Shown piece by piece: positions 3,665 to 3,937 of a stretch of DNA of 4,520 nucleotides. This stretch comes from a virus (taxonomy: Duplodnaviria > Heunggongvirae > Uroviricota > Caudoviricetes): IMG/VR virus record IMGVR_UViG_2541047126_000023; one strand, given 5' to 3'. The notes beneath the pieces were generated by a model that was not told the DNA's origin, did no database searches, and saw only the letters and a list, made by a program, of their open reading frames with translations. The translations under genes were made by a program, and so were the position numbers. How positions within the stretch are numbered: the stretch's first letter is position 1; each line of letters opens with the position of its first letter.

Positions 3665-3733
3665 AACACCAACGGCAGATAGATAAAAGCCCCACCCGAC
3701 TATAAATCGAAGTGAGGCCCCTATATGCTCGTC
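3665..3733 (-). ncRNA. sok: Putative Sok-like antisense RNA (type I antitoxin) overlapping the hok leader and upstream start region
   Basis: On the minus strand, a TTGACC -35 (complement of 3764-3769) and a weak -10 CAATCT (complement of 3740-3745) sit at the position of the R1 sok promoter relative to the hok SD (GCGCAA-GGAGAAG in R1, GGTCAA-GGAGAAG here). The transcript extent is inferred, not seen. Confidence 0.3.
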
Positions 3734-3781
3734 ACATATAGATTGCCTCTTACGGACCGAAAGGTCAAGGAGAAGCAGGCT

Positions 3782-3937
3782 ATGAAGCAGCAAAAGGCGA
3801 TGTTAATCGCCCTGATCGTCATCTGTTTAATCGTCATAGTGACGGCACTGGTAACGAGGAAAGACCTCTGCGAGGTACGAATCCGAACCGGCCAGACGGA
3901 GGTCGCTGTCTTCACAGCTTACGAACCTGAGGAGTAA
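3782..3937 (+). CDS. hok: Hok/Gef-family type I toxin (HokD/RelF-like, 51 aa); in-frame upstream extension from ATG 3725 gives a 70-aa mok-equivalent frame
   Basis: Translation MKQQKAMLIALIVICLIVIVTALVTRKDLCEVRIRTGQTEVAVFTAYEPEE, with SD AGGAG at 3768-3772 (spacer 9). It has the hallmark Hok TM helix followed by TRKxLCExR and EVAxFxAYE. The upstream ATG 3725 has a GAGG SD at 3714-3717. Confidence 0.9.
   Translation: MKQQKAMLIALIVICLIVIVTALVTRKDLCEVRIRTGQTEVAVFTAYEPEE

What the first reader, a model, noticed from the sequence alone, without database searches (positions are those of the whole stretch)
3725..3784. Upstream mok-equivalent frame is in frame with hok, predicting a 70-aa N-extended Hok
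In plasmid R1, as I recall the sequence, the mok ATG is 58 nt upstream of the hok ATG and therefore out of frame. Here ATG 3725 is 57 nt upstream of hok ATG 3782, so translation from the upstream start would not make a separate Mok peptide and would instead produce MLVTYRLPLTDRKVKEKQA fused to Hok. That changes how upstream translation and toxin production are coupled, and it affects which protein an annotator should call.
Basis: partly seen in the sequence, partly recalled or inferred. Interest (0 to 1): 0.4.

Follow-up and report, generated by a model that had tools for sequence, protein, structure and literature searches.

The report
In-frame mok leader of prophage hok toxin
The upstream start codon really is in frame with the hok toxin gene, but this is the ordinary, already annotated layout of the hokC/hokD branch of the hok/sok toxin-antitoxin family (as in E. 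coli K-12 mokC/hokC), not a new kind of coupling.

Summary
ATG 3725 and ATG 3782 are 57 nt apart and in frame, giving a 70-aa ORF (3725-3937) that is a 19-residue leader plus the 51-aa Hok.

The implied novelty fails. The window is an E. coli O157:H7 lambdoid prophage (PPompW type) carrying a complete hok/mok/sok module. K-12 mokC/hokC has the same layout: 57 nt, shared stop codon, and a leader 15/19 identical to this one. The exact 70-aa protein is already in databases and is annotated as "gef" in phage records.

I surveyed 151 hok loci:
- 57 nt (in frame): 90 loci; dominates the hokC/D clade.
- 58 nt: 30 loci; dominates the R1-like and hokB clades.
- 56 or 59 nt: 14 loci; these give a 19-20-aa Mok that ends at the ATGA overlapping the hok start.

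The leader shows no codon-position signature. The conserved CCTCTTA block is read in all three phases in different loci. Conservation is therefore at the RNA and Sok-promoter level, not the peptide level.

Most likely mechanism: the canonical one. Leader translation from ATG 3725, blocked by Sok, opens the hok start region; the 70-aa product is a by-product. Low interest.

The parts
3601..3628 (+). Putative hok/mok mRNA promoter: -35 TTGCTG (3601-3606), 16-nt spacer, -10 TAGGAT (3623-3628)
   Evidence: Read from the sequence. The -10 aligns with TATAAT of K-12 hokC and TAGGAT of hokB, each 6 nt before the conserved GGGTGC mRNA start. The consensus scan did not report it at its threshold. Inferred.
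3635..4027 (+). Full-length hok/mok mRNA (about 393 nt), from the conserved 5' GGGUGCUUGAGG to the terminator U-run
   Evidence: Rfam RF01794 matches 3635-3784 end to end: 103.9 bits against a gathering score of 59, E 1.2e-23. A terminator lies at 4006-4023. The fold has z-score -7.67. The ends are inferred by homology, not mapped.
3635..3647 (+). tac element (5' end). It pairs with fbi in the full-length RNA and with ucb after 3' truncation.
   Evidence: MFE partners are 3987-3999 in the full-length RNA, with P(unpaired) 0.01. They are 3687-3693 in the RNA lacking fbi. This matches the R1 model described in PMC9841398.
3687..3696 (+). ucb / anti-SD (AAGCCCCACC)
   Evidence: It pairs with the mok SD in the full-length fold and with tac in the truncated fold.
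3714..3717 (+). mok Shine-Dalgarno GAGG, 7 nt before ATG 3725
   Evidence: GAGG lies 5-11 nt upstream of the aligned ATG in 134/151 loci. R1 GAGG mutations abolish toxicity (PMC9841398).
3721..3741 (+). Sok-target hairpin CUAUAUG-CUCGUCA-CAUAUAG. It holds the mok AUG in its stem and exposes a loop with the sequence CUCG, which fits Y-U-N-R.
   Evidence: In the fold, the AUG has P(unpaired) 0.00 and the loop 0.99. The loop is complementary to the inferred Sok 5' end GACGAG. Covariation support is modest: 2 of 7 pairs change on both sides and 65.9% of cells are paired, confounded by a register shift.
3725..3937 (+). mok-equivalent ORF, in frame with hok: 70 aa = 19-aa leader + Hok
   Evidence: The start aligns with the annotated K-12 mokC start. 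The leader is 15/19 identical to MokC. The exact protein is already in databases on >=1000 contigs. It is annotated as a 213-nt 'gef' CDS in LC567818.1.
3745..3749 (+). dcb (GCCUC), part of the conserved GCCTCTTAC block. It pairs with the mok SD region in the truncated RNA.
   Evidence: Truncated-RNA MFE partners are 3714-3718. The block is conserved across the window, hokC, hokB and R1.
3679..3733 (-). Sok antisense RNA (inferred), 5' end at 3733. It covers mok codons 1-3, the mok SD and ucb.
   Evidence: The annotated K-12 sokC and sokB ends both map to window 3733 and 3679. A slightly longer segment, 3675-3733 minus strand, folds into a hairpin plus U-tail with a free 5' tail, z -4.12. Expression was not tested.
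3740..3768 (-). Putative Sok promoter: -35 TTGACC (3768-3763), 17-nt spacer, -10 CAATCT (3745-3740)
   Evidence: The same geometry is seen in K-12 hokC (TTGACC-17-CACTCT), whose sokC 5' end is annotated. The -10 is weak and the consensus scan did not report it. Inferred.
3767..3772 (+). hok Shine-Dalgarno AAGGAG, 9 nt before ATG 3782. It overlaps the Sok -35 on the other strand.
   Evidence: Read from the sequence. It is conserved in nearly all surveyed loci. K-12 hokD homology begins here, at 3768.
3782..3937 (+). hok toxin CDS, 51 aa, 98% identical to K-12 HokD/RelF-type Hok
   Evidence: PGAP annotates hokD here. Pfam HOK_GEF scores 75.9 bits against a cut-off of 22, on residues 25-66 of the 70-aa ORF. 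Related loci match at 98%.
3987..3999 (+). fbi (fold-back inhibition) element CCUCAACGCACCC, pairing with the 5' tac
4006..4033 (+). Intrinsic terminator of the hok mRNA
   Evidence: 7-bp stem AACCCGC/GCGGGTT followed by TTTGTTTTTA.

Best explanation
The region 3601-4033 is a complete, canonical hok/mok/sok type I toxin-antitoxin module. It sits in an E. coli O157:H7 lambdoid prophage (PPompW type, between paa and rem). ATG 3725 is the mok start.

Proposed mechanism, by homology with R1 and K-12 hokC:
1. The full-length mRNA is locked by 5'-3' end pairing (tac/fbi), with the mok SD sequestered by ucb.
2. Slow 3' trimming lets tac pair with ucb instead.
3. Sok RNA, made from the opposite strand (3733 to about 3679), pairs with the hairpin loop and SD region around the mok start. 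This blocks mok translation and triggers decay.
4. When Sok is gone, ribosomes starting at 3725 read through the 19-codon leader and open the hok initiation region (SD 3767-3772, ATG 3782). Hok (51 aa) is then made.

Because the offset here is 57 nt, the leader ribosomes simply continue in the hok frame and make a 70-aa N-extended Hok. This is exactly the case for K-12 mokC. The frame is incidental. The mok-hok distance is held at 56-59 nt by RNA structure and by the Sok promoter that lies inside the leader. All three frames are used across the family.

Shown here: the ORF geometry, homology, family-wide spacing, lack of peptide-level constraint, and predicted pairings. Inferred: transcript ends, promoter use, Sok expression, actual translation, and toxicity.
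For: Identity of the locus:
- 100% match to O157:H7 chromosomes, with hokD annotated.
- Rfam hok/sok leader model at 103.9 bits. Pfam HOK_GEF at 75.9 bits.

Same layout in K-12:
- mokC 16751..16960 and hokC 16751..16903 share a stop codon and differ by 57 nt.
- MokC = MLNTCRVPLTDRKVKEKRA + HokC.
- The window ATGs 3725 and 3782 align with the mokC and hokC starts. Both sokC and sokB map to 3733->3679.

Survey of 151 loci:
- 57 nt: 90 loci, 34 unique leaders. These include four loci with R1-like Hok sequences (L038 Leclercia, L053 Kosakonia, L059 Dryocola, L068) and Erwinia (L037).
- 58 nt: 30 loci.
- 56 or 59 nt: 14 loci, with a 19-20-aa Mok stopping at the TGA of the hok ATGA.
- hokC orthologues in E. 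ruysiae and E. whittamii are at 56 nt (L020, L023).

No peptide-level constraint on the leader:
- Pairwise diversity by codon position is 0.222/0.263/0.246 in the leader against 0.065/0.044/0.111 in hok.
- The conserved CCTCTTA block is read in phase 1, 2 or 3 in different loci. Two different leader peptides (PLTDRKVKEK and LASYVPKGKEK) come from nearly the same nucleotides.

RNA architecture:
- tac/fbi pairing in the full-length fold, z -7.67.
- tac/ucb and SD/dcb pairings in the truncated fold.
- The AUG sits in a hairpin stem with an exposed loop.

Literature:
- In R1 the translation of mok, not the Mok product, matters, and translation beyond the hok start is dispensable (PMC9841398).
- A related prophage locus, hokW-sokW of Sp5, is a working TA system (PMC8621323 abstract).
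Against: - There are no expression, ribosome-profiling or proteomic data for this locus, so use of ATG 3725 and production of either protein form are inferred.
- The consensus promoter scan found neither the hok nor the Sok promoter. The Sok -10 (CAATCT) is weak.
- Thermodynamic folds are predictions.
- The hairpin covariation test was only modestly positive and was confounded by register shifts.
- The survey is not an unbiased sample. The 80 viral loci were the best matches to this Hok, so the count of 57-nt loci is inflated by close relatives.
- Chromosomal hok loci of K-12 were reported inactive in post-segregational killing tests (summarised in bioRxiv 10.1101/2025.08.07.668861).
Confidence: 0.8

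Rival explanations
1. The in-frame arrangement is itself selected in the hokC/hokD clade. The 70-aa Mok-Hok fusion would be a functional second isoform. It could be a toxin placed directly under Sok control, or a modulator of Hok insertion or oligomerisation.
For: - 57 nt dominates the clade: 30 unique leaders, against 4 at 56 nt and 3 at 58 nt.
- Two leader types differ by compensating single-base indels and both keep 57 nt.
- The extension is net positive (R6, R12, K13, K15, K17 against D11, E16). On the positive-inside rule it should stay cytoplasmic and leave the Hok transmembrane helix intact (inference).
Against: - The leader has no third-position excess and evolves 3-5 times faster than hok.
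- The same conserved nucleotides are read in different phases.
- hokC orthologues in sister Escherichia species, and nine identical prophage loci, sit at 56 nt.
- The compensating indels also keep the Sok promoter spacer at 17 nt. That explains the constant length without invoking the protein.
- The dominance of 57 nt can be shared ancestry plus sampling bias.
Confidence: 0.1
2. The 70-aa ORF is the only real toxin gene and ATG 3782 is just an internal methionine. The 51-aa call would then be wrong.
For: Several annotations call only the 70-aa ORF. Gene finders naturally prefer the longest ORF with an SD (GAGG, 7 nt upstream).
Against: - A strong AAGGAG lies 9 nt before ATG 3782 and is conserved across the family.
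- In the 56-, 58- and 59-nt loci the upstream ATG is out of frame, so Hok must start at its own ATG.
- K-12 hokD keeps only the sequence from window 3768 onward. The HokD coding sequence alone is reported toxic (bioRxiv 10.1101/2025.08.07.668861).
Confidence: 0.04
3. The locus is a decayed or silent relic, so ATG 3725 has no current role.
For: K-12 chromosomal hok loci failed post-segregational killing tests or are interrupted by IS elements. Neighbouring genes in this window are decaying: a fimbrial pseudogene, and a nonsense codon in the DUF1627 gene.
Against: - Every regulatory element is intact and positioned as in functional loci.
- The locus matches at >=99% identity in 558 E. coli genome records.
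- The hokW-sokW locus in prophage Sp5 of O157:H7 Sakai is reported as a working type I TA system (PMC8621323).
Confidence: 0.08

Closest known systems
E. coli K-12 mokC/hokC/sokC (formerly gef; I recall the overlapping frame being called orf69 by Poulsen et al. 1991, which I could not retrieve)
   Same: - The mok start is 57 nt upstream of the hok start, in frame, with a shared stop codon. The product is a 69/70-aa N-extended Hok.
- The leader is 15/19 identical and Hok is 80% identical.
- The Sok position, SD spacing, -35 TTGACC with a 17-nt spacer, and the conserved GCCTCTTAC block are all the same.
   Different: - The K-12 copy has IS186 20 nt after the stop codon, which removes the 3' fbi region. 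The window copy keeps fbi and its terminator.
- The window toxin is HokD-type (98% to K-12 HokD-type Hok) rather than HokC-type.
- The window locus is prophage-borne.
Plasmid R1 hok/mok/sok (parB)
   Same: The architecture is the same: tac, ucb, mok SD GAGG 7 nt before the ATG, Sok-target hairpin, dcb, hok SD, fbi, and antisense Sok over the mok start. The mok ORF is about 70 codons in both.
   Different: - The R1 offset is 58 nt, so Mok is a separate out-of-frame 70-aa peptide.
- Hok is only 39% identical.
- R1 is plasmid-borne, with demonstrated post-segregational killing.
E. coli K-12 hokD (relF) in the Qin prophage
   Same: The toxin is 98% identical. The downstream context is the same (rem-like gene), with 87% DNA identity from window 3768 to 4489. 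PGAP gives the window gene the name hokD.
   Different: K-12 hokD lacks everything upstream of the hok SD: mok, Sok, tac and ucb. That region is replaced by relBE. The window carries the intact, regulated form.
hokW-sokW of Sakai prophage Sp5 (PMC8621323)
   Same: It is a hok/sok type I TA locus in a lambdoid prophage of O157:H7. Related phage records use the names 'MokW' or 'MokW-like' for this gene.
   Different: It is a different prophage. I did not examine the mok frame of hokW itself, and the paper does not discuss it.

Membership tests
[quoted passage not shown] | Small hydrophobic toxin with the Hok/Gef domain | tested here: met
   Pfam PF01848 scores 75.9 bits (cut-off 22) on residues 25-66 of the 70-aa ORF. 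NCBIfam Hok subfamily NF007279 scores 43.5-44.3 bits, below its cut-off of 73. PGAP names the gene HokD.
[quoted passage not shown] | Conserved structured mRNA leader from the 5' end to the hok AUG | tested here: met
   Rfam RF01794 scores 103.9 bits against a gathering score of 59, covering model positions 1-157 of 157, at 3635-3784 on the + strand.
[quoted passage not shown] | Upstream overlapping mok reading frame, with its own SD, that reads through the hok initiation region | tested here: met
   GAGG at 3714-3717, ATG at 3725, and no stop codon before 3782. The start is homologous to the annotated mokC start.
[quoted passage not shown] | Antisense Sok RNA gene overlapping the mok initiation region but not the hok SD | tested here: met
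   This is met at sequence level only. The annotated sokC and sokB map to 3733->3679. The segment folds as a hairpin plus U-tail. The promoter is TTGACC-17-CAATCT. Transcription was not testable here.
[quoted passage not shown] | 5'-3' end pairing (tac/fbi), with alternative tac/ucb and SD/dcb pairings after 3' trimming | tested here: met
   These are predicted folds. The 5' end pairs with 3987-3999 with P(unpaired) 0.01. Without fbi, tac pairs with 3687-3693 and the SD with 3746-3749. They were not probed experimentally.
[quoted passage not shown] | Toxicity of Hok, with Sok-dependent and mok-dependent control | not testable with these tools
   This needs genetics. The HokD coding sequence is reported toxic elsewhere.
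mokC-type (in-frame) mok arrangement | mok and hok share frame and stop codon, with an offset of 57 nt | tested here: met
   Window 3725 and 3782 with the stop ending at 3937. K-12 mokC and hokC share the same end coordinate with a 57-nt offset.
R1-type (out-of-frame) mok arrangement | mok start 58 nt upstream of hok, in the +1 frame, giving a separate Mok peptide | tested here: not met
   The window offset is 57 nt. R1-type and hokB are at 58 nt.

The most novel reading that the evidence does not exclude
In the hokC/hokD clade the in-frame layout would be maintained by selection because the 70-aa Mok-Hok fusion is itself membrane-active. Sok would then control a toxic isoform directly rather than only through translational coupling. 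Alternatively, the long form would modulate the short one.
Probability: 0.1. Interest if true: 0.35.

Novelty: already known. Interest (0 to 1): 0.1.

Why it matters
It matters mainly for annotation hygiene. The same locus is called as a 51-aa HokD by RefSeq and as a 70-aa 'gef' or 'killer protein' elsewhere. The K-12 convention of annotating both mok and hok is the accurate one.

The family-wide survey is a small useful by-product. The mok frame relative to hok is free (56, 57, 58 or 59 nt). The leader is conserved as RNA and as the Sok promoter, not as a peptide. This agrees with the published R1 genetics. A recent census of Hok homologues explicitly left Mok unannotated because its start is hard to predict. 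A rule of GAGG plus ATG, 48-66 nt before the hok ATG, found a candidate in 134 of 151 loci.

Whether the long form is toxic remains an open but minor question.

Tried and rejected
- Literature look-ups that failed. Steif & Meyer 2012 by DOI and the Fozo 2008 review by PMC id are not held. A guessed PMC id returned an unrelated paper. Pedersen & Gerdes 1999 and Poulsen et al. 1991 could not be read, so what I say about 'orf69' is recollection only.
- The hokW-sokW paper does not discuss the mok frame.
- The consensus promoter scan found neither the hok nor the Sok promoter. The promoters are placed by homology only.
- Covariation test of the AUG hairpin. It gave 65.9% of cells paired, with two pairs changing on both sides. 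A +2 slide scored about as well, because different loci use different registers. I treat it as weak support.
- The weak isrK match at 3946-4027 (24.9 bits against a gathering score of 50) is just the hok 3' UTR and terminator, and I dismissed it.
- NCBIfam has no model that reaches its cut-off for this protein.
- I considered whether the constant 57 nt in two leader types means selection for the frame. I rejected this as the main explanation, because the same indels keep the Sok promoter spacer at 17 nt and the leader shows no coding signature.
- K-12 hokE and hokA are too divergent or truncated for my mok-finding rule. The mokA pseudogene shares its end coordinate with hokA, which hints at an in-frame layout, but it is cut by IS150.

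Full report
**Observation**

The window has ATG at 3725-3727 and ATG at 3782-3784. They are 57 nt apart and in the same frame. The ORF 3725..3937 encodes 70 aa, MLVTYRLPLTDRKVKEKQA followed by the 51-aa Hok.

In the R1-type IncF hok/sok sequence the offset is 58 nt, and mok encodes a separate out-of-frame 70-aa peptide. That sequence is 100% identical in the listed plasmid hits, and 2661 plasmid records match at >=99%. The coordinates given for R1 by Le Rhun et al. 2022 say the same: mok start codon at nt 116-118 and hok start codon at 174-176 (PMC9841398).

**What the locus is**

The window is 100% identical to E. coli O157:H7 chromosomes. There it lies in a lambdoid prophage between the paa adhesin gene and a rem-like gene, and RefSeq annotates only a 51-aa hokD. 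Phage records identify the element as prophage PPompW and annotate the 213-nt (70-aa) ORF as 'gef: phage maintenance protein'. The exact 70-aa sequence is already in public protein collections on at least 1000 contigs. One of its names is 'Killer protein encoded by prophage CP-933O'.

- The Rfam hok/sok leader model matches 3635-3784 end to end, at 103.9 bits.
- Pfam HOK_GEF covers residues 25-66 of the 70-aa ORF, so the extension lies outside the domain.

**Anatomy**

By alignment to K-12, the window ATGs 3725 and 3782 correspond exactly to the annotated mokC and hokC starts. The annotated sokC and sokB RNAs both map to window 3733->3679 on the minus strand.

- Sok therefore covers mok codons 1-3, the mok SD (GAGG, 3714-3717) and upstream sequence. 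It does not cover the hok SD (AAGGAG, 3767-3772).
- The inferred Sok folds into a hairpin plus U-tail with a free 5' tail.
- The full-length mRNA (3635-4027) folds with its 5' end (tac, 3635-3647) paired to 3987-3999 (fbi), at z = -7.67.
- In that fold the mok SD pairs with an upstream C-rich box (ucb, about 3690-3693). The mok AUG sits in the stem of hairpin 3721-3741, whose loop CUCGUCA is exposed.
- Without the 3' end, tac pairs with ucb, and the SD pairs with GCCUC (dcb, 3745-3749).

This reproduces the published R1 folding pathway (PMC9841398). A terminator lies at 4006-4023. The promoters are placed by homology only, because the consensus scan did not find them.

**Is the in-frame layout unusual?**

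No. In K-12, mokC (16751..16960) and hokC (16751..16903) share a stop codon and differ by 57 nt. MokC is MLNTCRVPLTDRKVKEKRA + HokC, and its leader is 15/19 identical to the window's. In contrast, mokB and hokB are offset by 58 nt and out of frame.

I collected 77 genome loci and 80 viral loci encoding Hok relatives. I defined the mok start as an ATG with GAGG 5-11 nt upstream, lying 48-66 nt before the hok ATG. Of 151 usable loci:

| Offset | Loci | Unique leaders | Mok product | Where it dominates |
|---|---|---|---|---|
| 57 nt | 90 | 34 | N-extended Hok, 68-71 aa | hokC/D-like clade (30 unique leaders); also four loci with R1-like Hok (L038 Leclercia, L053 Kosakonia, L059 Dryocola, L068) and Erwinia (L037) |
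| 58 nt | 30 | 20 | separate Mok, 24-71 aa | R1-like and hokB-like loci |
| 56 or 59 nt | 14 | 6 | 19-20-aa Mok ending at the TGA inside the hok ATGA | scattered |
| no such start | 17 | not applicable | none | includes the K-12 hokD type that sits behind relE |

hokC orthologues in E. ruysiae and E. whittamii are at 56 nt (L020, L023). One caveat applies: the viral sample is enriched for close relatives of this Hok, so raw locus counts overstate the 57-nt class.

**Is the extension a selected peptide?**

The evidence says no.

- Among 42 unique in-frame hokC/D-like sequences, leader diversity is flat across codon positions (0.222/0.263/0.246). The hok CDS shows the usual third-position excess (0.065/0.044/0.111) and is 3-5 times more conserved.
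- The conserved nucleotide block CCTCTTA is read in phase 1 in the window and hokC, in phase 2 in other prophage loci and hokB, and in phase 3 in R1 and the 56-nt loci.
- Two leader types, PLTDRKVKEK and LASYVPKGKEK, arise from nearly identical nucleotides through compensating one-base indels. Those indels also keep the Sok promoter spacer at 17 nt.

The leader is packed with non-coding signals: the Sok-target hairpin, dcb, the Sok -10 and -35, and the hok SD. Together these account for both its conservation and its nearly fixed length.

**Mechanism**

The best-supported reading is the canonical one. Sok blocks initiation at 3725. When Sok decays, ribosomes translate the leader and open the hok initiation region, and Hok is made from 3782. 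Published R1 genetics show that translation of mok up to the hok initiation region is required. They also show that the Mok product, and its translation beyond the hok start, are not (PMC9841398).

The frame should therefore not change the coupling. It only changes the by-product, which here, as in K-12 mokC, is a 70-aa N-extended Hok. Whether that long form is toxic is untested. Its net-positive extension should not prevent membrane insertion (inference).

**Relation to K-12 hokD**

Homology between the window and the Qin prophage starts at window 3768, inside the hok SD. It runs through the rem-like gene at 87% identity. K-12 hokD/relF is therefore the 5'-truncated remnant of this kind of locus, with relBE in place of mok and sok.

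**Verdict**

- Novelty: already known. The arrangement is annotated in the reference K-12 genome, and this exact 70-aa product is in the databases.
- Interest is low.

The residual open point is whether in-frame Mok-Hok fusions have activity of their own. It is testable with a simple start-codon mutant series.

Noticed in passing
window 3566-3589: A perfect 24-bp palindrome, CCGATATGGGAA|TTCCCATATCGG, lies between the paa gene and the hok promoter. Its function is unknown. It could be a protein-binding site or a junction of the paa insertion.
   Followed up: no
window 3920-3923: The Hok Tyr47 codon TAC is followed by G, giving UACG, the sequence context I recall for TadA A-to-I editing. The recent Hok census says hokC, hokD and hokE mRNAs undergo RNA editing analogous to hokB's Tyr-to-Cys recoding, affecting cysteine 46 (bioRxiv 10.1101/2025.08.07.668861).
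   Followed up: no
window 1094-1828: The DUF1627 gene has a good SD and ATG at 1094 but hits an in-frame TAG at 1145-1147 after 17 codons (METVFDALKAMGKATSV*LAARLD...). PGAP starts the CDS immediately after the stop, at 1148. This is probably a nonsense mutation.
   Followed up: partly
window about 1994-2527: A fimbrial-protein pseudogene, frameshifted and with an internal stop according to PGAP, lies just upstream of the low-GC paa adhesin gene at 2688-3446.
   Followed up: no
window 3635-3784 (+): Rfam family RF01794 is named 'sok antitoxin' but matches the sense (hok mRNA) strand from the mRNA 5' end to the hok AUG. It effectively models the hok leader rather than the antisense RNA.
   Followed up: no
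L004 507-632 (pAPEC-O2-R, NC_006671.1): The plasmid annotation of R1-type hok starts at an internal GTG (codon 12), giving 41 aa instead of 52. It has no mok. This is another sign of inconsistent start calling in this family.
   Followed up: partly
L091, L019, L020, L023, L073, L075 and relatives: In hok loci with a 56- or 59-nt offset, the mok frame ends at the TGA that overlaps the hok start (ATGA), giving a 19-20-aa leader. This is a termination-overlap geometry distinct from both R1 and mokC.
   Followed up: partly
window 3768-4489 against K-12 Qin (L164): K-12 hokD/relF shares 87% identity with the window only from inside the hok SD onward, including the rem-like ORF at 4155-4415. The mok/sok part is replaced by relBE in K-12.
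   Followed up: yes
L005, L021, L029, L034-L036, L052, L068: Several hok hits in the genome collection sit in assemblies labelled as non-enterobacterial: Veillonella, Acinetobacter, Xanthomonas, Ferruginibacter, Streptomyces, Oscillibacter, Dysgonomonas and Vagococcus. Many are on short contigs, with sequences identical to E. coli or IncF loci. This looks like contamination or mis-binning.
   Followed up: no
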